NCBI GenBank assembly: GCA_001787405.1
Contig: MFWV01000007.1
Location: 15,694-79,693 of the forward strand
DNA length: 64,000 bases
Reading direction: 5' to 3'
Source of the DNA: Candidatus Pacebacteria bacterium RIFOXYA1_FULL_38_18
GTDB lineage: Bacteria; Patescibacteriota; Microgenomatia; UBA1400; PJMF01
A program made the translations under genes and the position numbers. The notes below the pieces were generated by a model, which saw only the letters and a program-made list of their open reading frames with translations, ran no database searches and was not told the origin of the DNA. Positions 11,652-42,691 of the stretch are shown one piece after another. Numbering within the stretch: position 1 is the first letter of the stretch; each line of letters starts with the position of its first letter.

Positions 11652-11680
11652 TTTTTTAGCCTGGTATCCAGGCTAAAAAA
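11652..11680. repeat. 29-bp perfect palindrome TTTTTTAGCCTGG-TAT-CCAGGCTAAAAAA
   Basis: Read directly. Thirteen-bp arms flank a 3-bp centre. It shares the AGCCTGG/CCAGGCT core with the palindrome at 12066. Confidence 0.6.
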
Positions 11681-12065: not shown

Positions 12066-12094
12066 GCATGTCCAGGCTTATAGCCTGGACATGC
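12066..12094. repeat. 29-bp perfect palindrome GCATGTCCAGGCT-TAT-AGCCTGGACATGC; candidate recombinase (dif-like) or regulator site
   Basis: Read directly. A partial third copy (ATAGCCTGGA) lies at 12048-12057. It sits about 1.1 kb upstream of the Xer-like recombinase gene. Confidence 0.5.
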
Positions 12095-13146: not shown

Positions 13147-13175
13147 TTGACTATACTCAGTTTTTCTTTTACGAT
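13147..13175 (+). promoter_or_regulatory. candidate sigma70 promoter TTGACT, 17-bp spacer, TACGAT, for the Xer-like gene
   Basis: Hexamers and spacing read directly. A GAGAGGAG RBS precedes the ATG at 13187. Confidence 0.35.
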
Positions 13176-13186
13176 GAGAGGAGCCT

Positions 13187-24187: not shown

Positions 24188-24202
24188 AATCAAGCTTTAA
24201 TT

Positions 24203-25405: not shown

Positions 25406-25602
25406 ACAAGTGACTGATTTTTTGATTCACACGTTTCCATTTGAGTGAAAATTATACCCTTGTTTTCACAAGCGCTCGTTTTAAAAGACCAGTCACTTGC
25501 TCAGTAGACTCATTTTAGTGTACAGTTATAGATGATAGAAATTAGTAATTATGCAGTTGTGGGTTAATTAATGGGTAATTTAAATAATACCAGGGAGGAA
25601 AT

Positions 25603-26253
25603 ATGAAAATACTGCCTTTTTTAAAAAATCTTCAATCACGAGTCAAACTCGGTGGTGGTAGTGGTGGTTTTACCATGATTGAGCTCTTGATCGTGATTGC
25701 TATTTTGGGTATCTTGGCGGTGGCGGTGCTATCAGCCATCAATCCAATTGAGCAAATCAATCGTAGTCGAGATACTGGTAGTCGCTCTGATGCAGAGCAA
25801 TTGATCAGTGCCATTGACCGCTACTACGCCTTCAATGGTTACTATCCATGGCAAACTGGAGCAGATGATCTAACTAACGTTGATTTGGCTTGGACGAAAT
25901 TTGATACTACGCTTTTAAAAGATAGTGGTGGGACTTGTTTTGTGGGAGAGAAACTTGGTACAGCTACTACGGCTGGTTGTACGGGTGCTGACGAGTTGAA
26001 ACAGAGTTTCTTGGAAAGAGTATCAAAAACTACCTATAACGCGTTGTATATTTACAATGACGGTAGTCAAGGTAGTAGTACTTATGCTTGCTTTGCTCCC
26101 AAATCTCAAGCCTTTGTTCAAGAAACGGAACAACGCCTTGATCCAGATGGTGATGGTACTTTGGATAACTACCCCACTGATTATCCGGCCACTGATGCGA
26201 TCGGCAATACTGCTCAATGTGGTACTGGTGGCAACTGTGTGTGTCTACCATAA
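25603..26253 (+). CDS. type IV major pilin with a long leader peptide
   Basis: Class III signal ...GGSGG|FTMIELLIVIAILGILAVA with the conserved Glu5. A C-terminal Cys pair is present. A strong RBS (AGGGAGGA) precedes the gene and a strong intrinsic terminator follows it. Confidence 0.75.
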   Translation: MKILPFLKNLQSRVKLGGGSGGFTMIELLIVIAILGILAVAVLSAINPIEQINRSRDTGSRSDAEQLISAIDRYYAFNGYYPWQTGADDLTNVDLAWTKFDTTLLKDSGGTCFVGEKLGTATTAGCTGADELKQSFLERVSKTTYNALYIYNDGSQGSSTYACFAPKSQAFVQETEQRLDPDGDGTLDNYPTDYPATDAIGNTAQCGTGGNCVCLP

Positions 26254-26282
26254 GGTTGGAAGTTAAATCAAAAAATAAAAAA

Positions 26283-26308
26283 CCCCGAACTTAAACTTCG
26301 GGGTTTTT
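26283..26308 (+). terminator. rho-independent terminator after the major pilin gene
   Basis: CCCCGAA-cttaaac-TTCGGGG hairpin followed by TTTTT. Confidence 0.8.
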
Positions 26309-26368
26309 AGTTTCTCTGCTGTTGGTTTAGATTTGCTCTCCTCTCCCCTGATTTAGTATACTGAACTC

Positions 26369-27187
26369 ATGGAGTTTTCTTGGCCGATAGCAATCACGGT
26401 TTTTTTACTGGGTACTGCAGTGGGCAGTTTTCTAAATGTATTGGTTTATCGCATGTTGAGAAATGAAGATTGGATTAGGGGCAGATCATATTGCGAGACT
26501 TGTCATAAACAGATTTCTTGGTATGAAAATATTCCGATCTTATCCTATCTTTGGTTAAAAGGTCGTTGTTCTCGTTGTCAAACGTTGATTAATCCTATTC
26601 ATCCTACTTTGGAGTTGTTGACGGGCGCACTTTTTTTATGGTGGTATGTAGAAGGCTGGCAAGTATTTATGGCCAAAGCCTGGCTATTGCCTATCTTGCA
26701 ACCATTGTTTTGGTTAGTAATTGGTCTGGTTTCAATTACTATCATTATTGCTGATTTCAGAGAAATGATCATTCCTCGTTGCTCAGTCTCTCTTTTGATT
26801 ATTCTTACCCTGCTTTATCGGTTAGTTTTAATTCTCACGGGTGAAATGCAAGCGGTTGATCTTTGGTGGAGTTTGCTTTGGTCACTGATTTTGGTTTTAG
26901 TTTTCTTTTTTTTATGGTGGGTTACCAAAGGCAAGAGTTTTGGTTTTGGTGATGTACAACTAGCTTTGCCACTAGGCTTATTATTGGGCAGTTGGCAGAG
27001 AATCGTGATTGGTATTTGGCTGGCTTTTTTGATTGGAGCAGTAGTTGGTTTGTCATTAGTTTTTTCAAAAAAGAAAGGCTTTCGTCAATCAATTCCCTTT
27101 GGACCATTTTTGATTTTAGGTACGGCTTTAAGTTTGCGCTGGGGTTGGCAATTATGGGAAGCTTATCTTAAATTGATTGGTAGTTAA
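26369..27187 (+). CDS. pilD: prepilin peptidase (A24 family)
   Basis: An N-terminal CxxC...CxxC zinc-binding tetracysteine (CETCHK...CSRCQ) and multi-TM peptidase A24 core. Confidence 0.85.
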   Translation: MEFSWPIAITVFLLGTAVGSFLNVLVYRMLRNEDWIRGRSYCETCHKQISWYENIPILSYLWLKGRCSRCQTLINPIHPTLELLTGALFLWWYVEGWQVFMAKAWLLPILQPLFWLVIGLVSITIIIADFREMIIPRCSVSLLIILTLLYRLVLILTGEMQAVDLWWSLLWSLILVLVFFFLWWVTKGKSFGFGDVQLALPLGLLLGSWQRIVIGIWLAFLIGAVVGLSLVFSKKKGFRQSIPFGPFLILGTALSLRWGWQLWEAYLKLIGS

Positions 27188-27204
27188 AAAAGAATAAAAA
27201 ATCT

Positions 27205-28239
27205 ATGAGAGTGCTAAAAATTTTTTTCAGTTTTGTTTTCGCTTTGTTAATCTTGGGGTCTTTGAGCTGGCTTTCTTGGCGTGAAATTCAACTTTACCGA
27301 GCAATTAGTCAAGTCAGATCTTCTGCAAGAAAAATGCGCGAACTGCAACCCAGCGGTCAATTTAGTCAAAATTGTTTGATATATGGTGGCTCACCAGTTG
27401 ATAGCCAAACTTTGACTAGAACACAATTGCGTTTTATTTCAAATAAAGATTATGTTTTGGAAATAGTTTGTCAAACAAACGAATCTTTGCGTCAATTAGT
27501 TGAAGAAGCTACTTTGCCAATGCTGGTAAATAAAGATTCCAATCAATCTGGTTTAATCTTTGGTCAAAAACAACATGGTGTGACCTTGTCGATTTTGGGC
27601 AGAACTGGAGTAGTTTATGAAGGAGAATCATTTATTCAAAGTGCTACACGTTATCGGGTTGATGATGGTTTGATTTTGGATCAAGGTCCAGTTACTGCTT
27701 GTACTGGTTATGGTTTTACTTGTTGTGACGAAACTTATCAATTGGGTCAGAATGAACAAAATACTCAAGCTTTGGATTGTCCCAAATCTTGTTATGAAAG
27801 TTGCATCGAAAAGCCAGTAATCTTGAGTTTTCATAGTCTTCCCTCTTACTCTTCGGCAGAAAAAATAATCCAAATTCAATCTGGTGAGCAGGTTGAGTTT
27901 TTTTATACAGTCAATGATATTCAGGGAGACTTGCTCACTAGAAGATTTGCTAGTCAAGAAGAGTGGTCTGATACAAGTTGGTCAGAGAAGCTAATTCGTG
28001 TCATAGAAAGTTTTTTTAATCAACAGCCAGTGACTGATAGTTTGGAAAAAATTATTGTTTCTTTTGGTGACAAAGAAACCGCAGAGCTCTCTGACTTGCA
28101 AGGATCGGTTGTACACACCTATACTTGTAATCAGCGCTTGTGTGTTTATAACGCTACTATTCAAGCCATGACCAAAAACAAGATTACTAGTTCTTTGGAT
28201 CAAGACAGTAGTATTCAAATACAAGTACAAGGACAATAA
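27205..28239 (+). CDS. hypothetical membrane-anchored, Cys-rich extracytoplasmic protein within the pilus locus
   Basis: N-terminal TM or signal-anchor segment. Many Cys residues lie in the mature part (CTGYGFTCCDETYQ..., CPKSCYESC). No family recognised. Confidence 0.4.
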   Translation: MRVLKIFFSFVFALLILGSLSWLSWREIQLYRAISQVRSSARKMRELQPSGQFSQNCLIYGGSPVDSQTLTRTQLRFISNKDYVLEIVCQTNESLRQLVEEATLPMLVNKDSNQSGLIFGQKQHGVTLSILGRTGVVYEGESFIQSATRYRVDDGLILDQGPVTACTGYGFTCCDETYQLGQNEQNTQALDCPKSCYESCIEKPVILSFHSLPSYSSAEKIIQIQSGEQVEFFYTVNDIQGDLLTRRFASQEEWSDTSWSEKLIRVIESFFNQQPVTDSLEKIIVSFGDKETAELSDLQGSVVHTYTCNQRLCVYNATIQAMTKNKITSSLDQDSSIQIQVQGQ

Positions 28240-28242
28240 ATT

Positions 28243-28692
28243 ATGATAAAGTTTTCTCCCTCAAGATTTTCCCCAGGTTTTAGTTTGTTGGAGTTGTTAG
28301 TAGTAATTTCTATTATTGGAATCTTGATTGCCATCAGCACAGTTGCTTTTACCACTGCCCAAAGAACTAGTCGTGATTCTCGTCGTCGGTCTGATATCAA
28401 AGCAATGCAAGATGCTTTTGAACAATATATGGCTGACAATGGCACTTATGAAGCTTGTGCAACCATGGCAGCCTATGATAATGGCTCTGGCTCGATCATG
28501 CCGGCTGGTTTGCCGATTGATCCGCGCAATTCCGGGGATCATGTTTATAACACCAGCACTGGTTGCACGACCAGTGGTTATTGTGTTTGCGCGCTTTTGG
28601 AAAGTGGGTCTGGTAATGCAGCTGCTCCTCTTGCTGATGCGTGCAATTATGTGAGTGGCGGTGATTATTATTGTTTATCTGATCTTCAATAA
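28243..28692 (+). CDS. type IV (pseudo)pilin
   Basis: Prepilin signal RFSPG|FSLLELLVVISIIGILIA. C-terminal Cys residues are present. Confidence 0.7.
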   Translation: MIKFSPSRFSPGFSLLELLVVISIIGILIAISTVAFTTAQRTSRDSRRRSDIKAMQDAFEQYMADNGTYEACATMAAYDNGSGSIMPAGLPIDPRNSGDHVYNTSTGCTTSGYCVCALLESGSGNAAAPLADACNYVSGGDYYCLSDLQ

Positions 28693-28747
28693 AATTCAAA
28701 ACAAGTCAAATAAGATTGATAAATCAATTAAAAAGAAATAAAAAAAT

Positions 28748-29155
28748 ATGAGAAAACCCTCTACCCCTTCTGGTTTTACCATGATTGAGTTATTGGTGGT
28801 GGCCACAATCATGATTGTTTTGACCACGATTGGTTTGATCAGTTATCGCAGTGCCATCCAAAACAGTCGCAATGCCAAACGAAAAACAGATTTACAAATC
28901 ACTCGCCAAGCCCTAGTTCTTTATCGTAGTGATAATGGTTGTTACCCGGCAGATAATACTTTTTTGGGAATGCTGAATACCATTACTGGCTACATTAACG
29001 AAACTCCTTATGATCCACTGGGTTCTGCAGGAGCTCCACTTTATATCTATACACCCATTGATGCCGGTAGTTGTGGCATTGGTGAAGCGACTGGATTTGT
29101 TCTGGAAGCAAGTTTAGAACCGGACAATACAGCCTATACAGTTGAGAATCCGTGA
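28748..29155 (+). CDS. type IV (pseudo)pilin
   Basis: Prepilin signal STPSG|FTMIELLVVATIMIVL. Confidence 0.7.
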   Translation: MRKPSTPSGFTMIELLVVATIMIVLTTIGLISYRSAIQNSRNAKRKTDLQITRQALVLYRSDNGCYPADNTFLGMLNTITGYINETPYDPLGSAGAPLYIYTPIDAGSCGIGEATGFVLEASLEPDNTAYTVENP

Positions 29156-29174
29156 GGGATAGAAAAATAAAATC

Positions 29175-29708
29175 ATGATCAAAAAAAATATTTTTTTTCC
29201 AGTTGGTTTTTCTTTAATTGAACTGTTGGTAGTAGTAGCTATTTCCATGATTTTATTGAGCGTGGCAATTAGTTCACTGATTACTTTCAATGAACGCAGA
29301 TCAATCACCAATGCTGTAGATGAATTAAAAAGTCAAATTCAAACGGCTCAATCTAAAGCACAAGCCGGTGATTTGGGAGGGTGCAATCAGTTGGCTGGTT
29401 ATTCATTGCAAACTTATCTTAATGGTAATGTTACCGAGATATCCATGCAAGCAAGCTGTGGGGTGGGTATTCCTGACACTGCTCAAATTCAATCTTTGCC
29501 GGCTGGAGTGACCGTGACTCCCGATTTGGATGCTAATTTTCAAGTTCTCAATGCCGGAGTACAGTTGCCAAGTGGGGTGGCCAGTCAAGATTTCACGATC
29601 GCCAATAACACTCATAGTTATGTTTTTACTTTGTATCGAGAAGGTAGAACCAGTGAAGGAGCGTGGCAAGAAAATCAATTACCGGTAGGACCGGTATCAC
29701 CGTTTTAA
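29175..29708 (+). CDS. type IV minor pilin
   Basis: Prepilin signal FFPVG|FSLIELLVVVAISMILL. Confidence 0.7.
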   Translation: MIKKNIFFPVGFSLIELLVVVAISMILLSVAISSLITFNERRSITNAVDELKSQIQTAQSKAQAGDLGGCNQLAGYSLQTYLNGNVTEISMQASCGVGIPDTAQIQSLPAGVTVTPDLDANFQVLNAGVQLPSGVASQDFTIANNTHSYVFTLYREGRTSEGAWQENQLPVGPVSPF

Positions 29709-29718
29709 AAAACAAAAA

Positions 29719-30207
29719 ATGAAAAAATGGTTTAACAAAAAATTACTCAATCAGACCGGTTCTAGCTTGATTGAGGTGATTGTAGCTACTGGTGTTATCG
29801 CTTTGGTGTTGACGGCGCTAGTAGCTGGTATGACTGTTTCTTTACAGACTAGTGCAGAAGCAAAATATCGCTCGCAAGCTATTAAGCGAGGTCAGGAAGC
29901 GATGGAGGTTTTTCGCAGAGAGAGAACTTTATTGGGTTGGCATGGTTTTATTAATCAATTTGGTAGTGGTGGTACTTACTGTTTGCAAACGCTACCAGCA
30001 CCAAGAGGAAGTTTTACTTTGGGTGAATGCGCAAGCAATGAGAGTTTAGTCATATCAGGACTTGATTTTTATCGAAATGCAATCGTCAGCGTGGACAATA
30101 CTGATCCCACCAACGCCCAGATGAAGGTGGAAATAGTGATTACTTGGAATTCTGGTCGAACCGAGCACAACATCGATTTAACTCAGGTTTTTCGTCAATG
30201 GGATTAA
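29719..30207 (+). CDS. PilV-like minor pilin
   Basis: N-terminus ...NQTGS|SLIEVIVATGVIALVL, characteristic of the PilV/FimT class. Confidence 0.6.
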   Translation: MKKWFNKKLLNQTGSSLIEVIVATGVIALVLTALVAGMTVSLQTSAEAKYRSQAIKRGQEAMEVFRRERTLLGWHGFINQFGSGGTYCLQTLPAPRGSFTLGECASNESLVISGLDFYRNAIVSVDNTDPTNAQMKVEIVITWNSGRTEHNIDLTQVFRQWD

Positions 30208-30231
30208 ATGAAAAGCTAACCTTTTTTTTAA

Positions 30232-30780
30232 TTAATTATTGCGTAGAGTCACTCCCGACTGAAAGGTTTCTTGAGCTGTTTCTCGGTCAGCACTCTCCCC
30301 TGCTCCAATCTGTAACTGAAATGAAATGCCGATATAAAAAGAGGATTCTTCTCCAGTCAAACAAACAAATTCTAGGTTTGACAGGTTAGTTTCATCAGAA
30401 GTCAAATAATAATAATCATTGATGGCACTAGAATAAGAAGCAATTTTGGGATTTTCCTCTGGATAAGTCTGGAGAGTAGTAATGAAACCATCAAAACCCT
30501 CTACGGCAAGACTGGTCATGGGATTGTTTGGATCATTATTGCAAGTAGTGGCTCCGTCCAGAGATGGTGCCAAACGCCGAGCATTACGTAAAATAAACTC
30601 TATATTTGACAGAGCATTTTCTCCTTCACTTTTTACTTTTTGTTCAATGCTAGTCTTTTGGGAAGTGATCAAAAAAGTCATCAAGATGGAGGTGACGGCT
30701 AGCATAATAATCACGGTTAGAGAAGTTACTACTAGTAGTTCTATCAAAGTAAAGCCGGCGGATTTTTTCAGCATTTTCAT
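30232..30780 (-). CDS. type IV minor pilin; start set at the internal Met (MKMLKKSAG|FTLIELLVV)
   Basis: Prepilin signal with Glu5. It is the last gene of the convergent minus-strand operon. Confidence 0.6.
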   Translation of the reverse strand: MKMLKKSAGFTLIELLVVTSLTVIIMLAVTSILMTFLITSQKTSIEQKVKSEGENALSNIEFILRNARRLAPSLDGATTCNNDPNNPMTSLAVEGFDGFITTLQTYPEENPKIASYSSAINDYYYLTSDETNLSNLEFVCLTGEESSFYIGISFQLQIGAGESADRETAQETFQSGVTLRNN

Positions 30781-30806
30781 TTTTATTGTAGCGATTTTTG
30801 GCATAG

Positions 30807-32153
30807 TTAGGGAGTTGAAAACCGCGGTTGAATTTCACGAATATTAAAATGAGCAGATTTCATCAAAGTGGGAATGTTGACCATAAAATCAGGGCGAAAA
30901 ACAAAAGTTTCAGTAGGAGTAGTATTATTGACGCTATTATCTTCAAGTTTGGCAAAACTTCTTTGTAAATTAATTCCGGTCCATCCCACAAAAGTACCAG
31001 CAGCAATGAATTTTTTGTCTGGATTGGTCAAATAACTTTGTACCCAGATAGTTCCATCAGTAATAAAAACACCTTCTATCAAGGGAGTATCTGGGGAAGC
31101 TGAATCAGTATTTACATTTGCGTAACCTACATGAGGAGTAATAATTACGTCTCCTTGGCTAATAAAAGCCAGAAAGCCTCTACCCCCCCTCTCCACCGTA
31201 ATCAGCCGATTTTCTGCTCCTGGCTGATCGTCAATGATCAAATTTCCTTCCAAGAAGACAATAATTTGTTCATTGGCAGTTAAGTGCCACTGATTGCCCT
31301 CTCCGATAGTCAGATCACCACTTTGATGGTAAATAGCTGGATAATTTGCTACGGTTGGTTTCTGAGAGCTGGGCAAAGGCATTGCTTTTGCAGACATTTT
31401 TTTATAAAAATAGGCATAATTTTCCGTAGGCAAACTTATACCAAGTGCAAAACCTTGATCAGAATTAGAGCGCTGATCTGGATCATGAATAAAGTTTCCA
31501 CCGGTTGCGTGAGTATAAATAATTCCGTCACTACTAAAAGCAAAACCGGGACTATCCAGAGTTGTTTGATTATCATCACCGATCAATGCCGGCAAACAGC
31601 CAGCAGTAGTATTGCAGTATCCAGGCGTTCCAGCCAAACTTACGGGAATTAAACTCTGGATATTATATTTGGAAAAAACATTGCCGCCTCGTACTTGCCA
31701 CCAGGCGTTATTTTGTACATTAGCTCGTTTGACAAAGACATTGATCGGTCCAGGAGTGGCTGGATTTTGATTGGTAAAAACACATTGATACGCATCCAAA
31801 GGATTGGCGTTACAGGCACACTGCCAAGCATTGGTTGGATCCGGTGGAGGATAAGGCAGACTAATAGTGACTGAATAATCAGGATAGTTGCCTTCTACTT
31901 GAACAGAATAAGTATTATCAATTACATTACCAGAGTTTTCTTCTCCAGGCCTACTGGCTTTGATTTTGAAACCCACTCCGCTCACTTGTGTAGTAGTCAG
32001 GCCAGCGCAGCGATTATCAGTACTCTCAAAACCCACAGGTGTGGCATTTTCATCAACAAAGATTCCCCCACCAAAGCCAGCAGCACTGACTATTTGACTT
32101 GAACGAATCAACACGAGAAAAAAACTCAAACCAATCAAAATGATTTTTCGCAT
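30807..32153 (-). CDS. secreted protein of unknown function, paralog A; start set at MRKIILIGLSFF..., a signal peptide
   Basis: Signal peptide present. It shares an approximately 400-aa C-terminal domain with the upstream 678-aa protein (for example NAWQCACNANP..., GAENRLITVERGGRGFLAFISQGD, KKFIAAGTFVGWTG, IFRPDFMVN). Confidence 0.5.
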   Translation of the reverse strand: MRKIILIGLSFFLVLIRSSQIVSAAGFGGGIFVDENATPVGFESTDNRCAGLTTTQVSGVGFKIKASRPGEENSGNVIDNTYSVQVEGNYPDYSVTISLPYPPPDPTNAWQCACNANPLDAYQCVFTNQNPATPGPINVFVKRANVQNNAWWQVRGGNVFSKYNIQSLIPVSLAGTPGYCNTTAGCLPALIGDDNQTTLDSPGFAFSSDGIIYTHATGGNFIHDPDQRSNSDQGFALGISLPTENYAYFYKKMSAKAMPLPSSQKPTVANYPAIYHQSGDLTIGEGNQWHLTANEQIIVFLEGNLIIDDQPGAENRLITVERGGRGFLAFISQGDVIITPHVGYANVNTDSASPDTPLIEGVFITDGTIWVQSYLTNPDKKFIAAGTFVGWTGINLQRSFAKLEDNSVNNTTPTETFVFRPDFMVNIPTLMKSAHFNIREIQPRFSTP

Positions 32154-32182
32154 TAATATCAGTGTACAAGAAATCTTCTTTG

Positions 32183-34219
32183 CTAGAAACTCGGTTCGAT
32201 TTCTCGCCAACTCATTTGAGCAGACTTAATTTGTCTGGGAGCATTGATGATAAAGTCAGGGCGGAAAATAAAGACTTCGGTGGCAGCAGCGCTATTTAGT
32301 TCTGGACTCACTCCGTCATCAAAATTCCTCTGTAAATCTACTCCGTCCCATCCCACAAAAGTACCAGCCCCAATAAATTTTTTATCAGTGACTCCTGTTT
32401 GACCAGCAATGGTTATCAAACCATCAGCTACAAACACTCCCTCTACATTGGCCACATTGGCAGTAGCGGCATTGGTATAAATATTGTCATAACCTACATT
32501 GGCAGAAATAGTGAGATCTCCACGGACAACAAACATCAAGAAACCATCTCCTCCAGAAGCTACGGTAGTGAGTCTATTCTCTCCTCCTACCGTATCATCG
32601 ATAGTCAAATTACCATCTACAAAAACAATGATTTGTTCTGTATTGTTTAAATTCCAGGAATTGGTCTGATCAATATTTAAGTTTCCGGAATAAAGATAAA
32701 CTCCCAAATTGTCACTGCCGACAATGGGTTTTTGAAGATTGGTAAGAGTTTGAGCTGAAGCACCAAATTTATTGTAGAAATAGTCGTAGTTTTCCAAAGG
32801 TACTCTTACTCCCAAAGCCTGACCTTGAACAGCACTGCTTCGACCATCTACCTCATGGATATAGACTCCAGAACTGTCACTGGTCACGATTGCACCAGTA
32901 TTTACCAAGGGAAAACCAGCACTATCTACTGTGCCTGATGGATCACGCAACATCAAGGCAGGATTGCAAGTAGGCAGACTACAAGTAGCAAAAGGAATCT
33001 TGGATTGAATATTGTCTGAGGCCCAAGAACTGCCACCCAAAGTTTGGAACCAGGCAGAAGTTATTTCATTGCGTTTGACAAAGAAATTGATGAAACCCTG
33101 ATTTGGTTGTTGATTGGTATACAGACAGCGGAAGGGATTGGAAGGATCGGCATTACAAGCACACATCCAGGCATTGTTTGGATCTGCTGGTGGAAACTCT
33201 AGTTCCAGGGCAACGGTGTAATCACTATTACTGGTATTGGCGACAATAGAATAGGCAGTGTTGTTGATGATTTTGGATTGATTTTCTCCAGTCCGATTGA
33301 GAGTCAATAGACCATTAGTAATTGAAGCGGCAACTGCGGTGCTACCGGTACACAGATTATCTGTTCCGCCAATGCCTGAAGCAATGGCATTTTCATCCAT
33401 GTAAAAATTACCTCTAAATCTTTGCACTGGTGTAGGCGTAGGGGTGAGCGTGGGCACTATTGGTGCGGTTACGTATAAAATCTTATCGTCGTAGCACATC
33501 GACACCCCAGACGCATATACCCTAGCCCGCAAAGTTACGCTTCCGGAAGTATCTCCACTAGTAGCTACAGATTTCCACCCATCTGCTCTTACAGTATCAT
33601 CCAAAGGATCTAGTGTTAATGTGCCAACCCCAGCTATTTTTCGAAAAGTTACTTTGGTGGCAATCATATTGTTTTCATTTACCACCGCTATCAAGCTTTT
33701 TGTATCATTTTCTCCCGCCACAAAATCTCCTGTAAGCGCATTTAGTGTTACCGTACAACTAGGCGTGGTAGGTGTAGGCGTGGGTGTAGGCGTAGGTGTA
33801 GGCGTGGGTGTAGGCGTTCCCCCTCCTCCAGTGGGTGTGGGGGTGGGACAAGGAATAATCTGAAAGAGAGTGCTATCTGTCGTACACTCACAGTAGAGAA
33901 AGCCCGCATCATCACACTGATCAGCACACCAGGTATAAGTCCCCGCACAATTATTTCCTCCAAGAGGACAATTCTCACAGGAGATAGCACACTGGTAATC
34001 GCTGTTGCAGTAGGTGGTTTGACCCTGACAATCAGTAGCGCAACCCGTTCCAGCTGGAGCATAATAATCACACCCATATTCTCCTGGTGTAGTACAAATG
34101 TTTGGATCAGTAATAGTTGGATACACAGTTTGGGCAAGAGCCTGCTGGACAGAAGTAAACAGGAAAACAATAGCCAAGATCACTAGACTGAGTTTGGACA
34201 AAAATTTCATCCCACTCAT
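32183..34219 (-). CDS. secreted protein of unknown function, paralog B, with an N-terminal Cys-rich module and a Pro-Thr linker
   Basis: Signal peptide, then a Cys-rich approximately 100-aa module and a (PT)n linker, then a C-terminal domain paralogous to 30807..32153. Confidence 0.5.
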   Translation of the reverse strand: MSGMKFLSKLSLVILAIVFLFTSVQQALAQTVYPTITDPNICTTPGEYGCDYYAPAGTGCATDCQGQTTYCNSDYQCAISCENCPLGGNNCAGTYTWCADQCDDAGFLYCECTTDSTLFQIIPCPTPTPTGGGGTPTPTPTPTPTPTPTPTTPSCTVTLNALTGDFVAGENDTKSLIAVVNENNMIATKVTFRKIAGVGTLTLDPLDDTVRADGWKSVATSGDTSGSVTLRARVYASGVSMCYDDKILYVTAPIVPTLTPTPTPVQRFRGNFYMDENAIASGIGGTDNLCTGSTAVAASITNGLLTLNRTGENQSKIINNTAYSIVANTSNSDYTVALELEFPPADPNNAWMCACNADPSNPFRCLYTNQQPNQGFINFFVKRNEITSAWFQTLGGSSWASDNIQSKIPFATCSLPTCNPALMLRDPSGTVDSAGFPLVNTGAIVTSDSSGVYIHEVDGRSSAVQGQALGVRVPLENYDYFYNKFGASAQTLTNLQKPIVGSDNLGVYLYSGNLNIDQTNSWNLNNTEQIIVFVDGNLTIDDTVGGENRLTTVASGGDGFLMFVVRGDLTISANVGYDNIYTNAATANVANVEGVFVADGLITIAGQTGVTDKKFIGAGTFVGWDGVDLQRNFDDGVSPELNSAAATEVFIFRPDFIINAPRQIKSAQMSWREIEPSF

Positions 34220-36908: not shown

Positions 36909-37073
36909 ATGGCAGCAGTACCCAAAAATAAAATTACTAGAGCCGAGCGTGGCAAGCGTCGGGCCGGCAACAAACCAAAACTTAAGAAAGATCTCAACAC
37001 CAAAATGCCTTTACATAAAAAAGGTATTATGGCTTCTATTTTTAAAGCAACGGGAATGGATAAGGAAGAATAA
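36909..37073 (+). CDS. rpmF: 50S ribosomal protein L32, a 54-aa ORF below the ORF-track size cutoff
   Basis: Translates to MAAVPKNKITRAERGKRRAGNKPKL..., matching the L32 N-terminal pattern (MAVPK.K.S..R...RR). An AAAGAGAAAAA purine-rich run precedes the ATG. Confidence 0.5.
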   Translation: MAAVPKNKITRAERGKRRAGNKPKLKKDLNTKMPLHKKGIMASIFKATGMDKEE

Positions 37074-37136: not shown

Positions 37137-37601
37137 ATGACTGACGCTATTGACCCCAGACATGAGAAACGCGTGCAATTGATGCAAACTTTGTTTGCGC
37201 TGATGTTTACCAAAGAAATCAAAATTCAAGATCAAGAAACTCCCAATATTGATGATCACAAAGAAGAAAGATTGGTAGGAGATGAAATTCAAGAAACTGC
37301 AGAACTACCATATTTTTCAGAAGCGCAAGCGATCTTGGATCAAATAGCACAAATTGATCAACAAATCATTGAACACGCCTCAGAAAGACCTCTGGCAGAA
37401 ATCAATCAAGTAGATTTGGCGATCATGCGTCTAATTATTTTTGAAGCCAATACCCAACAAACCCCCAAAAAAGTACTGGTTGACGAAGCCATAGAATTGG
37501 CCAAAGAATATGGTACTGATAGTTCATCAAAATTTGTGAATGGTGTATTGGGCAAAGTATTATTGGGTGAAAATAAAATTAAATTAGCAAAAAATAATTA
37601 A
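37137..37601 (+). CDS. nusB: NusB-family transcription antitermination protein
   Basis: N-terminal [15 protein letters not shown] and C-terminal [10 protein letters not shown]...[30 protein letters not shown] match NusB conserved blocks. Confidence 0.6.
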
Positions 37602-37631: not shown

Positions 37632-37895
37632 ATGCAAAATGAAATTTTTGAACAATTGAGAGAATTATTGGCGATGGCTACCGGTCATAATACCGAGGAA
37701 ATTTTTCCAGAAAGTCAGTTGGAAGTAGATTTGGGCATTAATTTGGAAGAAGATTTTGGTAGATTGCTGGCGATCATCAATCATGAATTTGGGATCGAGC
37801 TAGAAGCCATTCACGTACTCAATGAATTGGAAGAAGCAGAAGATACGGTGGAGCAATTGGCCAAATTAATCGAAGAAGAAGTAGAATTAGGCTAA
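37632..37895 (+). CDS. acyl carrier protein-like small acidic protein lacking the phosphopantetheine-attachment Ser
   Basis: Four-helix acidic ACP-like sequence. Where the DSL motif is expected (DLGADSLD), this protein has DLGINLEE, with Asn in place of Ser. Confidence 0.5.
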   Translation: MQNEIFEQLRELLAMATGHNTEEIFPESQLEVDLGINLEEDFGRLLAIINHEFGIELEAIHVLNELEEAEDTVEQLAKLIEEEVELG

Positions 37896-37922: not shown

Positions 37923-38594
37923 ATGCTACCAAAATTTAAAAACAAACAATTACTGGCCACTGCCCTTTCTCATCGCAGTGCTTTCAATGAAACCGATTCG
38001 GGTACTAGTGCCTTGGAATCCTATGAACGCTTGGAGTTTTTGGGCGATGCTGTTTTGGAATTGGCAACTACGGAGTGGCTTTATAAAAAATATGCTACTG
38101 AACCAGAGGGAATCTTGACCGCCTATCGCAGTTCTTTGGTGAAAACCACTACCCTGGCAGAAACTGCCCGCGAACTTAAGTTGGGCGAGCAGATGTATAT
38201 GAGTCGTGGCGAAGAAGCAACTGGTGGTAGGAAAAATATTGGTTTATTGGCTGATGTTTTTGAGGCTGTGATTGGTGCTTTGTATTTGGATCAAGGTTTT
38301 GTGGCAGTCGAAAAATTTTTACATCAGCATCTTTTTCCCAAATTTGAAGAAATTAAAAAGAATAAACTTTATCGCGATCACAAGAGTTTCTATCAAGAAG
38401 TGATTCAAGCAGAGAGTTTGCCCACTCCCGTTTATGAAGTGGCTGAGGCTATTGGTCCAGATCACGACAAGGTTTTTACGGTCAATGTTTTGGTAAATGG
38501 GAAGATAACTGGTAGTGGCACTGGCAAAAGCAAACAAATAGCACAACAAGCAGCAGCCAGACAGGCGCTTGAGAAATTTGAAGAAGAAAGGTAG
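37923..38594 (+). CDS. rnc: ribonuclease III
   Basis: RNase III signature ERLEFLGDAVLEL plus a C-terminal dsRBD. Confidence 0.9.
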   Translation: MLPKFKNKQLLATALSHRSAFNETDSGTSALESYERLEFLGDAVLELATTEWLYKKYATEPEGILTAYRSSLVKTTTLAETARELKLGEQMYMSRGEEATGGRKNIGLLADVFEAVIGALYLDQGFVAVEKFLHQHLFPKFEEIKKNKLYRDHKSFYQEVIQAESLPTPVYEVAEAIGPDHDKVFTVNVLVNGKITGSGTGKSKQIAQQAAARQALEKFEEER

Positions 38595-38649: not shown

Positions 38650-39156
38650 ATGCTCAAAATTAAATTAGCTCACTTTGGTAAACGCAATCAATCACATTTT
38701 CGAATCGTGGTTAATGAAGCCAGAGATAAACGCGATGGTAGTTACGTGGCTCTTTTGGGTCATTATATTCCTGCCCAAGAACCTAAAATCTTGGAAATTG
38801 ACGTCAAAGCTTATCAAGCCTGGATAGCCAAAGGTGCTCAACCCACCGAAACCGTGGCCAATCTTTTTGAGCGTTACCAGTCCAAAAATCCTTTTCCTGC
38901 CAAGCCCAAAAAACCTTCTCGTAAAACTTTGGCAAAAGCCGAAGCTGCCAAAAAAGCCAAAGCAGAAGAAAAACCAGCCGAAGAAATTAAAATCGAGCAA
39001 CCAGCCGAGAAAACTCCTGTTGAAGAAACACCCACTGAAGAAAAGCCCGTTGAAGAAGCAACCGTTGAACAAGCACCAGCCGAAGAAAAGCCCGTTGAAG
39101 CAAAACCAGTTGAAGAAACACCCACTGAAGTAGTACCAGTAACCGAAGAAAAATGA
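38650..39156 (+). CDS. rpsP: 30S ribosomal protein S16 with a low-complexity C-terminal extension
   Basis: MLKIKLAHFGKRNQSHFRIVVNEARDKRDGSYVALLGHY... followed by roughly 90 aa of KPVEE/EEKP/TPTEE repeats. Confidence 0.9.
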   Translation: MLKIKLAHFGKRNQSHFRIVVNEARDKRDGSYVALLGHYIPAQEPKILEIDVKAYQAWIAKGAQPTETVANLFERYQSKNPFPAKPKKPSRKTLAKAEAAKKAKAEEKPAEEIKIEQPAEKTPVEETPTEEKPVEEATVEQAPAEEKPVEAKPVEETPTEVVPVTEEK

Positions 39157-39383
39157 AAAATTTTGTTGAATATCTGCTCGTTCGCTTAGTTGATCACCCC
39201 GATGATTTAGTTGTAGAAGAAGAACAGACAGACGAAGGTTTGGTTGTTCATATCAAAGTACACGCTGATGATATGGGTCGCGTAATTGGTCGCAGTGGCA
39301 ACGTAATCAAAGCGATTCGCAAGTTGGTGCAAGTCAAGGCAGCCAAAGATGATTTGCAGGTCAGAGTTTTACTAGACGAATAA
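39153..39383 (+). CDS. KH-domain RNA-binding protein (YlqC/KhpA-like)
   Basis: GRVIGRSGNVIKAIRKL (GxxG KH motif). It lies immediately downstream of rpsP with a 4-bp overlap, as in the rpsP-ylqC arrangement. Confidence 0.7.
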   Translation: MKNFVEYLLVRLVDHPDDLVVEEEQTDEGLVVHIKVHADDMGRVIGRSGNVIKAIRKLVQVKAAKDDLQVRVLLDE

Positions 39384-40208
39384 TTATTCTGTAAGTTCTT
39401 CCAAGCCCAATGTTTCCTCCAAATTCGTAACAGTCAGTCCTTGAATACCAAACAGATCATCATTGTTACCGCTGATAATCGTTGTTTGTCCTTCAATTTT
39501 GGTTGGTGAAAATTCCAAAATAGCTTGAAACACTCTTTTTTCTTCTTCAGAAATAATGGGGAGAGCAGAAGACAGGGTAGAAGAGATGGGCTTGGTGTAG
39601 TAATAAGCGCTCAGTGACAAATCAGCTCTAGTGGCATTTTCAATCAAAGGGTCATTGACCTTGCGATCAATAGTCAAACTATTGATAGTGGTCAAAGGAG
39701 AAACTCTTTCGATCAGATCCATAAACATTCTCACTTGTGGCAACGGACCAACAACGGTTAATTCCAAGTCCAATTGGTCATAATCAGATTTAATCTTTTT
39801 TTGATTGGCAGTTTTATCTACTTGAGTGCTATCGCTGGCAATTTCTCCAGGATTTATCTCAAATTCTGTAATAGAAACTCTTGTTTCTCCAGCTACGCTA
39901 TTCAAGTTATTCAAAACTTCCAAAAGTGGTTTGTGGGAAGGCAAAACACGATTAATTTGTTCTGCTTGAGCGAATTCTGGAGAAAATTTTAATTGTGCCA
40001 GTTCTTGAACTTTACGATCCAGTTGGGCAATTTTGTCATTTTCTTTTTTCAATTGGCGGTTGGTTGCCAGAGCATTGGTAGTTTGATTATAAGTGAGAAT
40101 AATCAGAATGAGAGTTGTCAAACCAAAAGCAATAGCCAGAAGCAAATCTCTTCTGGTATTGAGCAATAATTGCCAGTTAAAATCGCTGAAGCGATTAAGC
40201 TTTGCCAT
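39384..40208 (-). CDS. pilO: PilO-like type IV pilus assembly protein
   Basis: N-terminal TM helix, coiled-coil segment and a periplasmic domain. Position after pilM-pilN supports the call. Confidence 0.5.
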   Translation of the reverse strand: MAKLNRFSDFNWQLLLNTRRDLLLAIAFGLTTLILIILTYNQTTNALATNRQLKKENDKIAQLDRKVQELAQLKFSPEFAQAEQINRVLPSHKPLLEVLNNLNSVAGETRVSITEFEINPGEIASDSTQVDKTANQKKIKSDYDQLDLELTVVGPLPQVRMFMDLIERVSPLTTINSLTIDRKVNDPLIENATRADLSLSAYYYTKPISSTLSSALPIISEEEKRVFQAILEFSPTKIEGQTTIISGNNDDLFGIQGLTVTNLEETLGLEELTE

Positions 40209-40211
40209 AGC

Positions 40212-40766
40212 TTATTTATCTCTTTCTTTTTTCAGTTCTACCGCAATATCCAAACTATAATTGCCAGTTTCATCTCGTCTCAAGCCACTTTGAGAAACAG
40301 AACTAAAAACATTTTTTACTTCATCAGATTCAAGTACATTCAGAGTATTTTCAAAGGCAAAAACATCCTGACTGGTTAAACGTAGCGATAGCTCATTTCC
40401 CTCTCCTCCATAATTCATGCCTGATAAAAATACTTGATCACCAAAAACATTGGAGAAAAAATCAATGGCTTGTTGTTTATTACTCCGACTTTCATAAATT
40501 TCTCTGACACTTTTCAATTTTTGAGAAAAAATCAAGAAACTCACTTCCACTGGTTCTTCATCGGCAATTTGTGTTGTAAGAGCTTGTTGGGTGGCATTTG
40601 CTTGTCGCAAACGGGTGGTAAGAAAAATATTGGCCCCGATCGCCAAAACAAAGAAACTTAGAGCAATAATAAAAGCGATCGTGGCATAACGACGATAAAG
40701 AGTGTCTTGTTTATTGGCTTTGCCCAAAGAAGCTCTGCGTCCAGTAAGGAAATTAATCTCCGACAT
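40212..40766 (-). CDS. pilN: PilN-like type IV pilus assembly protein
   Basis: MSEINFLTGRR... N-terminus, a single TM helix and a coiled coil; 184 aa, directly downstream of pilM. Confidence 0.55.
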   Translation of the reverse strand: MSEINFLTGRRASLGKANKQDTLYRRYATIAFIIALSFFVLAIGANIFLTTRLRQANATQQALTTQIADEEPVEVSFLIFSQKLKSVREIYESRSNKQQAIDFFSNVFGDQVFLSGMNYGGEGNELSLRLTSQDVFAFENTLNVLESDEVKNVFSSVSQSGLRRDETGNYSLDIAVELKKERDK

Positions 40767-40769
40767 ATT

Positions 40770-41795
40770 TTAAGCCTCCCTCATTAGCAATCCCATGCAA
40801 ACGGAAAAAGCTAATTGATTTTGAGTGGGGATTTCTCCGGTGGCAGTAGCAAAAGGAGCTGCAAGTAAAATTTCCAGGTTGAGGGTACTAGTAAGATGTT
40901 CTACTAAACCTGGTAATTGTGCCGATCCGCCGGTTAAAACCAAGCGCTGAATTGTATTTTGAGGAGCTTGGTCGGCAAAATAACGCAAAGCTTTTTGAAT
41001 TTCTCCAGCTAGATTATTGATAGTGGGCAACAAGGCATTTTTTACTTTACCTTCAAATTGATCTGCGTTGAGTCCATAGGCGCGCTTGTATTGTTCAGCT
41101 TGTTGTAAATCTAGGCCTACTGTTTGTTGCAAAGTATTGGTCAGAAGATTGCCGACTCCTTTGTGAGTAAAAACAAACTGAATTTCTCCGTTTGCTACCA
41201 CCATGATATCCATATTGGTTGCTCCCAAATTAATAACCATGGTGGCTGGTTCTTGTTGATCAATACCTAAAGAGCGCAGTACCGAGAGCATTTGAGTTTC
41301 CAAAAAACTTGGCTCAATACCAGCATTGGTAAATAAAGCAAGATAGCGTTCTACCAAAGGTTTGCGAGTGCCAGTTAATAAGACACGCATTTGTGCTTGT
41401 TCATTATTTTTTTGAGAAAGACTGGATTTTGGCGGACGATATAAAACTTTGTATTGTAAAGATAATTCTTCTTTGGGAATAGGAATGTGTTGTTCTGCTT
41501 GCCAACCAATTGCAGAAGCAAGCTCGGCATCGGTGAGAAAAGGAATGGTGATTACTTTGGTAGAGACTGCAGTTTCTGGCAGACTCAAACGAATGTCCGT
41601 ATGGGGTAATTTATTTTCAAAAATGGTGTTATTGATTAGTTCGCTGAGTTGTTCTGTTTGCAAATCATCAGTGGGCATGGCCACTCCAAAATTATTTGGT
41701 ATTTCTATGGTACGCAAAATATTGGGAGTTCCATCAGGATCGGCAGCGATCGCTTTTATTGCATAAGTTCCAATGTCGATAGCTGTGGCAGGCAT
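40770..41795 (-). CDS. pilM: type IV pilus assembly ATPase-like protein PilM (actin/FtsA fold)
   Basis: N-terminal AIDIGTYAIKAI phosphate-1 motif and a later LVLTGGSAQLPGL motif typical of PilM/FtsA. Confidence 0.8.
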   Translation of the reverse strand: MPATAIDIGTYAIKAIAADPDGTPNILRTIEIPNNFGVAMPTDDLQTEQLSELINNTIFENKLPHTDIRLSLPETAVSTKVITIPFLTDAELASAIGWQAEQHIPIPKEELSLQYKVLYRPPKSSLSQKNNEQAQMRVLLTGTRKPLVERYLALFTNAGIEPSFLETQMLSVLRSLGIDQQEPATMVINLGATNMDIMVVANGEIQFVFTHKGVGNLLTNTLQQTVGLDLQQAEQYKRAYGLNADQFEGKVKNALLPTINNLAGEIQKALRYFADQAPQNTIQRLVLTGGSAQLPGLVEHLTSTLNLEILLAAPFATATGEIPTQNQLAFSVCMGLLMREA

Positions 41796-41807
41796 GATAG
41801 TTTTTCT

Positions 41808-42617
41808 TTAATTTTTAATAATCGAACTACCGCTCACCAAAGCATATTCCATGAAAGCTGGGGCCGTGGAGAGAGTGCGTTTTACTTCAAAAGATCTGGT
41901 TTCTTGACCGGCTAAAGTGTTTTGAGCCTGAGAATTGATCGTAAATTGACTAACAGCTGGCGAACCAACGATTTTTATATCAGTGTCGTTGTAAACAGGT
42001 TTGACTCGCACAAACTCATCCGTATCAGTAGTAAAGAGAGTGTAGCCGTAATTATAAGGAGTAGGTCCTGGATCATTGGCAATAAAATTGTCTCCCCTAG
42101 TACTAGCCCCACTACAGTTTCCAACTGCGTAATGACGCACGGTAATTGTGCCGGCATTATTGTTATAAACAGACAAAATAAGTGAGGCAGTTTCTTCGCA
42201 GGTTGCTTCAATCGCCCAATAAAAACTTATACTACCAGCAGCAGGTAAAACCAGCTCAGTGCTAGTGCCTTGTTTGAGATGAGTTTCCAGAGTATTACTT
42301 TTATCAATGGTGTAGTTAATATCAGTATTGCTACCAGATAAATCTAGTGAAGAAACATCTTCTGAAAGCTCATCTATACTGCCAGTTGATTCTGATTGAA
42401 AAATATCAGCTAGTGCTGCTTCTACACCAGCCTCGGCAGCATTGAATACCCTAGTGGTGTCCTGTTGTTGGATCGAGATCTCTGCTTGTTGAGAAGTACG
42501 GGTGGCCAGGGATAAACCCAAAGCCAAAACTACGACCATGATCAATAAAACAACTAAACCAATCTGTCCATTTTGTGATTGATAAATGGTGGGAAATTTG
42601 AATATTTTTTTTGACAT
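41808..42617 (-). CDS. PilX-like or pilin-like secreted protein; start set at MSKKIFKF..., which has a GGAAGCAGGA RBS
   Basis: Hydrophobic N-terminal segment (QIGLVVLLIMVVVLALGLSLA) without the prepilin Glu5. It is the first gene of the pilM-pilN-pilO operon. Confidence 0.35.
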   Translation of the reverse strand: MSKKIFKFPTIYQSQNGQIGLVVLLIMVVVLALGLSLATRTSQQAEISIQQQDTTRVFNAAEAGVEAALADIFQSESTGSIDELSEDVSSLDLSGSNTDINYTIDKSNTLETHLKQGTSTELVLPAAGSISFYWAIEATCEETASLILSVYNNNAGTITVRHYAVGNCSGASTRGDNFIANDPGPTPYNYGYTLFTTDTDEFVRVKPVYNDTDIKIVGSPAVSQFTINSQAQNTLAGQETRSFEVKRTLSTAPAFMEYALVSGSSIIKN

Positions 42618-42691
42618 GATTTTTCCTGCTTCCATGATACGAATTCTTGATTCAGGAAACAAGAGTTAGTTAATTTATGATGGTTTTTGGA

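What the first reader, a model, noticed from the sequence alone, without database searches (positions are those of the whole stretch)
37632..37895. ACP-like protein retained next to rnc but lacking the phosphopantetheinylation serine
The protein has the length (87 aa), acidity and helix pattern of an acyl carrier protein. It sits in the classic position upstream of rnc, following the rpmF-...-acpP-rnc synteny. The invariant DSL serine is replaced (DLGINLEE versus DLGADSLD), so it cannot carry a 4'-phosphopantetheine arm. No fab genes are present in the window. This suggests a repurposed ACP scaffold in a lineage that may have lost fatty-acid synthesis.
Basis: partly seen in the sequence, partly recalled or inferred. 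Interest (0 to 1): 0.5.

Follow-up and report, generated by a model that had tools for sequence, protein, structure and literature searches.

The report
Serine-less acyl carrier protein relic family
A tiny-genome (CPR/Patescibacteria) bacterium keeps, in the ancestral acyl-carrier-protein slot next to the RNase III gene, a well-conserved ACP-fold protein. It has lost the serine that carries the lipid-building arm, so it must do something other than carry fatty acids.

Summary
Window 37632-37895 (+) encodes an 87-aa, very acidic protein (pI 4.05). It is identical to a 'hypothetical protein' of Candidatus Pacebacteria RIFOXYB1_FULL_39_46.

- **Fold:** the AlphaFold model (pLDDT 90.8) is a four-helix ACP fold, and nearly all of the top 50 PDB matches are ACPs.
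- **Homology:** sequence similarity to ACP is sub-threshold for this protein alone. It is solid at family level: 62 of 90 relatives hit PF00550, and the family HMM scores B. subtilis AcpA at 37 bits.
- **Missing serine:** the phosphopantetheine serine is absent. The canonical Ser aligns to Leu38 or Glu39. The window protein has no Ser/Thr between residues 29 and 71, and no family member keeps a DS[LI] motif.
- **Not a pseudogene:** dN/dS is 0.01-0.17. About 90 family clusters share rpmF-nusB-ACPlike-rnc-rpsP-khpA, often with ACP-like/rnc overlap.
- **Family-specific features:** Arg44, Asn50 and a C-terminal E-x-E-L-G end.

The best reading is a descendant of housekeeping acpP, by position, retained as a phosphopantetheine-independent protein-binding subunit. 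Its partner is probably in the rRNA-processing module, but that is unproven. The closest precedents are Plasmodium mitochondrial ACP and apo-AcpP activating MukB. I could not survey whole genomes for acpS, fab genes or a second ACP.

The parts
37632..37895 (+). ACP-like gene (87 aa plus stop): ACP four-helix fold without the phosphopantetheine serine.
   Evidence: ORF. Identical to NCBI hypothetical protein A2383_03725. AF2 pLDDT 90.8. Foldseek top hits are ACPs. PF00550 scores 17.1 bits against a cutoff of 20.8. The family HMM scores AcpA at 37 bits. dN/dS is 0.01-0.17.
37728..37754 (+). Degenerate attachment-site loop and start of helix II, residues 33-41 (DLGINLEED), in place of the canonical DLGADSLD.
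   Evidence: Alignments put Ser opposite Leu38; one search puts it opposite Glu39. Family columns: after DLG[IVL] the residues are N24/D23/T12/S10, then L31/gap19/M13/V9, then E37/D16.
37845..37892 (+). Helix IV with the family-specific conserved C-terminal end, residues 72-87 (TVEQLAKLIEEEVELG).
   Evidence: Counts out of 90 members: T72 71, V73 68, L76 83, E83 86, E85 70, L86 76, G87 67. 53 of 90 members end in ELG. Modelled helix 73-86.
36909..37073 (+). rpmF (ribosomal protein L32), first gene of the conserved cluster.
   Evidence: PF01783, E 4e-4. Found upstream of nusB in related loci.
37137..37601 (+). nusB, immediately upstream (30-nt gap).
   Evidence: PF01029, E 1e-22. Adjacent to the ACP-like gene in every locus examined. 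One 222-aa NusB-ACP-like fusion, P0098.
37923..38594 (+). rnc (RNase III), immediately downstream (27-nt gap).
   Evidence: PF14622, PF00636 and PF00035. In relatives its start overlaps the ACP-like stop by 1, 14 or 20 nt.
38650..39156 (+). rpsP (S16 with a long Pro/Glu-rich tail).
   Evidence: PF00886, E 1e-15. Conserved position.
39153..39383 (+). khpA (KH-domain RNA-binding protein); overlaps the rpsP stop.
   Evidence: PF13083, E 4e-21. Conserved position in most loci.

Best explanation
The gene is probably the direct descendant, by position, of the housekeeping acyl carrier protein gene. It sits in the acpA slot of the rpmF...acpA-rnc...rpsP-khpA arrangement, in a CPR lineage (Pacebacteria/Woesebacteria-type Microgenomates).

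It keeps the ACP four-helix fold and acidity but has lost the serine, so it cannot be phosphopantetheinylated and cannot carry acyl chains.

It is retained under purifying selection as a prosthetic-group-free protein-binding subunit. Helix II, the 'recognition helix', has been remodelled: Arg44 and Asn50 stand where AcpP has Glu41 and Glu47. Helix IV ends in a new conserved tip, E-x-E-L-G. Both changes point to a new binding surface.

Its most likely partners are products of the operon it is translated with: RNase III and/or NusB, that is, rRNA transcription and processing or ribosome biogenesis.

Shown: fold, homology, absence of the serine across the family, purifying selection, conserved operon position.
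Inferred: orthology by position, protein-binding role.
Speculative: the identity of the partner.
For: - Fold: AF2 pLDDT 90.8; Foldseek top 50 nearly all ACPs, TM 0.65-0.80.
- Homology: 62 of 90 family members hit PF00550, best E 1e-10. The family HMM scores B. subtilis AcpA at 37.2 bits and E. coli AcpP at 33.9 bits over almost full length.
- No Ser at the site: true for the window protein and for all 25 close and about 90 distant relatives.
- Selection: dN/dS 0.01-0.17 with synonymous sites saturated. Its identity tracks that of nusB and khpA across loci.
- Context: nusB-ACPlike-rnc-rpsP is present in all 18 related loci. Four of them were sampled through RNase III rather than through the ACP-like protein.
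- Coupling: stop/start overlaps with rnc of 1, 14 and 20 nt.
- Fusion: one NusB-ACP-like fusion protein.
- Ancestral adjacency: acpA-rnc is co-transcribed in B. subtilis (PMC4838370).
- Precedents for ACP acting without its arm: Plasmodium mACP (PMC8547962) and apo-AcpP stimulating the MukB ATPase as well as holo-AcpP does (PMC8602292).
- Lineage: CPR generally lack fatty-acid synthesis.
Against: - No direct evidence for any binding partner.
- The adjacency to rnc is inherited from the acpA-rnc arrangement, so it does not by itself prove a functional link.
- The NusB fusion is a single cluster representative. It could be a lost stop codon, since the two genes are 1 nt apart in the related locus L013.
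- The AF2 model of that fusion was uninformative (pLDDT 55.5).
- I could not check whether these genomes also carry a canonical acpP, acpS or fab genes. Some Patescibacteria do carry acpP (PMC12455944).
- The window protein alone is below Pfam and NCBIfam thresholds.
Confidence: 0.6

Rival explanations
1. It is a paralogue rather than the replaced housekeeping ACP. The genome still has a canonical holo-ACP, AcpS and lipid-handling enzymes elsewhere, and this copy is a side branch that lost the serine.
For: Some Patescibacteria carry acpP, reportedly by horizontal transfer (PMC12455944). Some Parcubacteria have partial FAS-II. Only 64 kb of this genome was visible.
Against: It occupies the slot that acpA occupies in B. 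subtilis, directly upstream of rnc. There is no second ACP or AcpS in the window or in the flanks of 18 related loci. CPR are generally reported to lack fatty-acid synthesis.
Confidence: 0.2
2. It is still a carrier, but by another chemistry. Cargo might be attached at a non-canonical residue or at the conserved C-terminal glycine carboxylate (as in ThiS/MoaD or LysW-type carriers). Alternatively, scavenged fatty acids might be bound non-covalently in the ACP pocket.
For: 67 of 90 members end in Gly, 53 of 90 end in ELG, and Glu83 is near-invariant. 22 of 90 members have Ser/Thr one position before the canonical site. The ACP hydrophobic-core positions are retained.
Against: No adenylating E1-like or ATP-grasp enzyme, or acyl-ACP synthetase, is found in the conserved neighbourhood. 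The C-terminus is modelled as part of helix IV rather than a flexible tail. Some members end in ELS, LEF or VEL. The nearby Ser/Thr is not conserved and is absent in the window protein.
Confidence: 0.08
3. It is a decaying remnant or a spurious ORF: a leftover leader of the rnc transcript with no protein function.
For: In B. subtilis the acpA-rnc mRNA is a target of RNase III autoregulation, so the region could matter as RNA.
Against: dN/dS is 0.01-0.17 with saturated synonymous sites. The length is constant at 83-106 aa. The conservation pattern is protein-level across about 90 clusters at 50% identity. The fold prediction is confident. Rfam finds no RNA family there.
Confidence: 0.02
4. It is an unrelated small acidic helical protein that only resembles ACP by convergence.
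For: The window protein alone is sub-threshold for PF00550 (17.1 against 20.8 bits). hhalign of the shallow alignment A1 against single ACP sequences gave probabilities of about 1%.
Against: 62 of 90 members hit PF00550. The family HMM scores AcpA/AcpP at 34-37 bits over full length, with the DLG, F50 and TV motifs in register. The eight best NCBIfam hits but one are ACP models. The structural matches are ACPs. The gene sits in the acpA position.
Confidence: 0.02

Closest known systems
Housekeeping acyl carrier protein AcpP/AcpA (PF00550; B. subtilis acpA in the acpA-rnc-smc-ftsY operon)
   Same: Four-helix fold, length and pI about 4. Conserved DLG loop, Phe at the end of helix II and the TV start of helix IV. 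Same gene position directly upstream of rnc.
   Different: No Ser in the (D/E)LGxDS(L/I) motif, plus a one-residue insertion there. Helix II carries Arg44 and Asn50 where AcpP has Glu41 and Glu47. A conserved E-x-E-L-G C-terminus. No fab, plsX or acpS neighbours.
Plasmodium falciparum mitochondrial ACP (mACP), a Ppant-less ACP that binds Isd11-Nfs1 (PMC8547962)
   Same: An ACP homologue that has lost the modified serine, in a compartment or lineage that lost type II fatty-acid synthesis, yet is retained (essential in Plasmodium) as a protein-binding subunit.
   Different: It is eukaryotic and organellar, and its partner is an LYR protein (Isd11). No LYR protein or cysteine desulfurase is encoded near the bacterial gene, and the conserved context here is rRNA processing and ribosomal genes. 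The two serine losses are independent.
E. coli AcpP as activator of the MukB ATPase (PMC8602292)
   Same: A bacterial ACP function that does not need the prosthetic group: apo- and holo-AcpP stimulate MukB equally. smc lies in the same operon as acpA-rnc in B. subtilis.
   Different: In E. coli this is a moonlighting role of a normal holo-ACP. Here the carrier role is gone. No smc gene is in the window cluster, and no interaction was tested.
Mitochondrial ACP in the MALSU1-L0R8F8-mtACP ribosome-assembly module (recalled from my own knowledge, not checked here)
   Same: ACP acting as a structural subunit in ribosome biogenesis. The CPR gene sits among rRNA-processing and ribosomal-protein genes.

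Membership tests
Acyl carrier protein / PP-binding superfamily (PF00550) | Four-helix-bundle ACP fold | tested here: met
   AF2 pLDDT 90.8, four helices. Foldseek PDB top 50 nearly all ACPs, TM 0.65-0.80 on the query.
Acyl carrier protein / PP-binding superfamily (PF00550) | Significant sequence match to ACP profiles | tested here: inconclusive
   The window protein scores 17.1 bits against a gathering score of 20.8, and the NCBIfam ACP models are far below their cutoffs. At family level, 62 of 90 members hit PF00550 at E<=0.01, best 1e-10. The family HMM scores AcpA at 37.2 bits and AcpP at 33.9 bits. Homology is therefore met at family level but sub-threshold for this protein alone.
Acyl carrier protein / PP-binding superfamily (PF00550) | Conserved Ser of the (D/E)LGxDS(L/I) motif at the N-terminus of helix II, the 4'-phosphopantetheine attachment site | tested here: not met
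   DLGINLEED. Ser aligns to Leu38 or Glu39. There is no Ser/Thr in residues 29-71, and no DS[LI] in any of about 115 family members.
Acyl carrier protein / PP-binding superfamily (PF00550) | Cognate phosphopantetheinyl transferase (AcpS/Sfp) and acyl-ACP-using enzymes in the genome | not testable with these tools
   None found in the 64-kb window or in the flanks of related loci. The whole genome could not be fetched.
Acyl carrier protein / PP-binding superfamily (PF00550) | Acidic recognition helix II (Asp35, Asp38, Glu41, Glu47 in E. coli numbering) | tested here: not met
   Only Asp41 (equivalent to Asp38) is kept. The Glu41 equivalent is Arg44 (R 47 of 90, K 11 of 90) and the Glu47 equivalent is Asn50 (84 of 90). 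The role of these AcpP residues is taken from my own knowledge.
Ppant-less ACP of the apicomplexan mitochondrial type (PMC8547962) | ACP homologue lacking the modified serine but retained under selection | tested here: met
Ppant-less ACP of the apicomplexan mitochondrial type (PMC8547962) | Binds an LYR protein (Isd11) and the Nfs1 cysteine desulfurase | not tested
   No LYR protein or desulfurase is in the conserved neighbourhood. No interaction prediction was possible with the tools.
C-terminal-carboxylate carrier proteins (ThiS/MoaD/ubiquitin-like; LysW) | Beta-grasp or zinc-ribbon fold with a flexible C-terminal GG or EDWGE tail, next to an activating E1-like or ATP-grasp enzyme | tested here: not met
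   The fold is an ACP helical bundle and the C-terminus lies in helix IV. The ending is ELG, not GG. No activating enzyme is in any of the loci.

The most novel reading that the evidence does not exclude
The ACP-like protein is a dedicated subunit or regulator of the rRNA transcription and processing machinery (RNase III and/or NusB). On this reading, the widespread acpA-rnc linkage in Terrabacteria reflects an old, prosthetic-group-independent partnership between ACP and RNA processing. CPR bacteria, having discarded lipid synthesis, have laid that partnership bare. This would give a bacterial counterpart to the Ppant-less mitochondrial ACP of Plasmodium, and a clean system for studying ACP moonlighting.
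Probability: 0.15. Interest if true: 0.8.

Novelty: new variant of a known kind. Interest (0 to 1): 0.55.

Why it matters
ACP is one of the most connected proteins in bacteria. Its non-lipid roles are hard to separate from its essential carrier role.

A whole bacterial family has kept the fold, the acidity and the ancestral gene slot but has lost the attachment serine. It has done so in organisms reported to lack fatty-acid synthesis. That makes it a natural separation-of-function experiment: whatever it binds is a candidate for an ancient, arm-independent ACP function.

It also gives a name and a hypothesis to a conserved 'hypothetical protein', sometimes mis-annotated as 'acyl carrier protein', in Microgenomates-type CPR genomes. 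Metabolic reconstructions should not count it as evidence of ACP-dependent lipid metabolism.

I found no description of such a bacterial family in the searchable literature. That is weak evidence, because many journals are not covered.

Tried and rejected
- hhalign of the shallow alignment A1 against single AcpP/AcpA sequences gave about 1% probability. This was uninformative because both profiles were thin. It was superseded by the 90-member HMM.
- The genome-contig scan with A1 returned only 7 close loci.
- The afdb50 fold library was not available.
- An AF2 model of the NusB-ACP-like fusion P0098, run without an alignment, had pLDDT 55.5 and pTM 0.48. It says nothing about docking.
- Promoter and terminator scans around the cluster gave no more hits than shuffles.
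- Rfam found no RNA family in or near the gene.
- Literature searches for serine-less bacterial ACPs or for ACP-like proteins in Patescibacteria returned nothing relevant.
- Explanations rejected: pseudogene or leader RNA (selection); convergent non-ACP helical protein; ThiS/LysW-type C-terminal carrier (fold and context).
- The rep-search hits to PKS/NRPS megasynthases are multi-domain sums. Their single domains score 18-39 bits, no better than AcpA or AcpP. They do not show a PKS origin.

Full report
**What is there.** Window 37632-37895 (+) is an ATG-initiated ORF of 87 codons. The identical protein is deposited as 'hypothetical protein A2383_03725' of Candidatus Pacebacteria bacterium RIFOXYB1_FULL_39_46, a CPR/Patescibacteria metagenome-assembled genome. 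It has 24 acidic and 3 basic residues and a pI of 4.05, the same as E. coli AcpP and B. subtilis AcpA.

The gene lies in a tight same-strand cluster:
- rpmF, 36909-37073
- nusB, 37137-37601
- the ACP-like gene
- rnc, 37923-38594
- rpsP, 38650-39156
- khpA, 39153-39383

The gaps are 30 nt to nusB and 27 nt to rnc.

**Is it an ACP?** For this protein alone, sequence evidence is weak but consistent:
- PF00550 scores 17.1 bits against a gathering score of 20.8.
- Seven of the eight NCBIfam hits are ACP models, at E 1e-3 to 0.07.
- The best PDB sequence hit is Aquifex ACP, at E 0.009.

Structure and family evidence settle the question:
- An AlphaFold2 model built on 25 homologues has mean pLDDT 90.8, with helices at 3-17, 42-53, 59-68 and 73-86.
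- Nearly all of its 50 best Foldseek matches in the PDB are acyl carrier proteins, with TM 0.65-0.80 on the query.
- A profile search of 1.84 billion representatives found 170 hits. About 87 are stand-alone proteins of 53-106 aa (almost all 81-106 aa). The rest are PKS/NRPS megasynthases with several carrier domains.
- Of 90 stand-alone members, 62 hit PF00550 individually, with a best E of 1e-10.
- An HMM of those 90 scores B. subtilis AcpA at 37.2 bits and E. coli AcpP at 33.9 bits over almost the full length. The DLG loop, the Phe that ends helix II and the 'TV' start of helix IV are all in register.
- Single PKS carrier domains score 18-39 bits, no better than AcpA or AcpP. The megasynthase hits are therefore sums over repeats and are not evidence of a PKS origin.

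**The serine.** Canonical ACPs read DLGADSLD; this protein reads DLGINLEED, with one extra residue. Depending on where the gap is placed, Ser36 of AcpP falls opposite Leu38 or Glu39. Neither has a hydroxyl group, and the protein has no Ser or Thr anywhere between residues 29 and 71.

The loss is a property of the family:
- None of the 24 close homologues at 61-90% identity has a DS[LI] motif.
- None of the 90 aligned stand-alone members has one either.
- The same holds for the three extra members recovered through RNase III.
- The columns after DLG[IVL] read N/D/T/S, then L/gap/M/V, then E/D.
- A Ser or Thr occurs one position early in 22 of 90 members, but it is not conserved.

Helix II is also re-charged. 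Arg44 (R or K in 58 of 90) and Asn50 (84 of 90) occupy the positions of AcpP Glu41 and Glu47. From my own knowledge, those residues contact AcpS and the Fab enzymes. Helix IV ends in a family-specific E-x-E-L-G stop: Glu83 in 86 of 90, Gly87 in 67 of 90, and 53 of 90 ending exactly in ELG.

**Is it a live gene?** Yes. Across ten loci, pairwise dN/dS is 0.01-0.17 wherever dS can be estimated, and synonymous sites are otherwise saturated. Its amino-acid identity tracks that of its neighbours:
- Among close relatives it is 64-90% identical, against 54-84% for NusB and 70-89% for RNase III.
- Among distant relatives it is 27-46% identical, against 34-48% for NusB and 36-50% for KhpA.

**Context.** Every related locus examined has nusB-ACPlike-rnc-rpsP, and most also have rpmF upstream and khpA downstream. 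The loci are:
- ten close loci;
- five distant members at 27-43% identity;
- four loci sampled through RNase III, independently of the ACP-like protein. One of these is labelled Woesebacteria. One lies on a 1.4-Mb contig that is probably mislabelled as Vitreimonas.

In three lineages the ACP-like stop overlaps the rnc start, by 1, 14 or 20 nt, which suggests translational coupling. One 222-aa representative, P0098, is a NusB domain fused to an ACP-like domain. This is a single case and could be a lost stop codon, since the two genes are 1 nt apart in the related locus L013.

**Where it came from.** In B. subtilis, acpA is the gene directly upstream of rnc. The acpA-rnc-smc-ftsY operon and a 1.1-kb acpA-rnc mRNA are documented in PMC4838370. 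From my own knowledge, unchecked here:
- rpmF heads the plsX-fab-acpP cluster in E. coli.
- rpmF-rnc are adjacent in Streptomyces.
- ffh-rpsP-khpA follow smc-ftsY in Bacillus.

The window cluster therefore looks like that ancestral arrangement with the lipid genes, and smc/ftsY/ffh, removed and nusB brought in. This makes descent in place from the housekeeping acpP the simplest history. I could not build the phylogeny that would test it.

**Lipid genes.** Pfam scans of about 50 window ORFs found no fab, plsX, plsY or acpS gene. What they did find:
- lgt, SHMT and folD
- ribosomal and translation genes
- gyrA/B
- type IV pilus genes
- tRNA synthetases
- PBP1 and GAPDH

The literature says that CPR bacteria generally lack fatty-acid synthesis (bioRxiv 10.1101/465690; PMC9938205). 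It also says that some Patescibacteria carry acpP (PMC12455944).

**How it most likely works.** The arm cannot be attached. The protein is conserved and confidently folded, and its conserved surface has been remodelled. A prosthetic-group-free protein-binding role is therefore the best-supported mechanism.

Two precedents show that this is feasible:
- Plasmodium mitochondrial ACP lacks the Ppant group. It is still essential, because it binds and stabilises Isd11-Nfs1 (PMC8547962).
- E. coli apo-AcpP activates the MukB ATPase as well as holo-AcpP does (PMC8602292).

The partner is unknown. The conserved, sometimes overlapping arrangement with rnc and nusB, and the one fusion, point to the rRNA transcription and processing module. 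However, the rnc adjacency is inherited and is not proof. I put about 0.6 on 'Ppant-independent binding subunit derived from acpP' and only about 0.15 on RNase III or NusB being the partner.

**Rivals.**
- Paralogue alongside a canonical ACP system: 0.2, untested.
- Carrier by another chemistry, such as the C-terminal Gly carboxylate, a non-canonical residue or non-covalent lipid binding: 0.08. There is no activating enzyme in any neighbourhood, and the C-terminus lies within helix IV.
- Pseudogene or RNA leader: 0.02, contradicted by the selection analysis.
- Convergent non-ACP protein: 0.02, contradicted by the family-level homology.

**Novelty and interest.** Serine-less ACPs that work as protein partners are known in apicomplexan mitochondria. 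I found no report of a conserved bacterial family of this kind (coverage is limited). Sources label its members 'hypothetical protein' or, misleadingly, 'acyl carrier protein'. I rate it a new variant of a known kind and moderately interesting. It is a natural separation-of-function allele of one of the most connected bacterial proteins, but no partner has been demonstrated.

Noticed in passing
window 11580-13187: About 1.6 kb with no ORF of 90 aa or more, between a DUF5656-like membrane protein and a XerC/D-type integrase (13187-14125). Rfam at gathering threshold and at E<=1 finds nothing credible.
   Followed up: partly
window 38650-39156: The ribosomal protein S16 gene encodes the S16 domain (residues 9-66) plus a Pro/Glu/Lys-rich repetitive C-terminal tail of about 100 aa. 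Most relatives also have long forms (134-170 aa), but one locus (L013) has a 79-aa S16.
   Followed up: no
window 37137-37601: NusB carries an insertion of about 27 residues after residue 22, relative to the NusB domain of P0098. Other relatives are also shorter, at 110-138 aa.
   Followed up: no
proteins P0064, P0066, P0139, P0146, P0084, P0112 (not in the window): These are tandem carrier-like repeats separated by Ala/Pro linkers. Their motif reads DLG[IV]DTVKQAE, with Thr where PKS/FAS carrier domains have the phosphopantetheinylated Ser. They may be another serine-less carrier-domain group.
   Followed up: no
window 21326-32210 (+) and 39384-42662 (-): A type IV pilus gene set is split in two around the ribosomal cluster. 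It includes two T2SSE ATPases, PilC, the prepilin peptidase and several N-methyl pilins on one side, and PilM/N/O plus a PilX-like protein on the other. pilMNO next to khpA is conserved in all related loci.
   Followed up: partly
L015 (JGI contig Ga0196971_1000001, 1.41 Mb): NCBI labels its RNase III as 'Vitreimonas sp.', an alphaproteobacterium. The locus nevertheless has the CPR-type recG...nusB-ACPlike-rnc-rpsP-khpA-pilONM synteny and 65% identity to the window RNase III. This is probably a taxonomic mislabel.
   Followed up: partly
P0098 (222 aa, not in the window): A NusB domain fused in frame to an ACP-like domain. It is either a real fusion or a lost stop codon between genes that lie 1 nt apart in the related locus L013.
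   Followed up: partly
alignment A2, Pfam scan: Seven of the 90 family members also hit PF19634 (DUF6137), best E 4.3e-5. This is a possible link to another uncharacterised ACP-like family.
   Followed up: no
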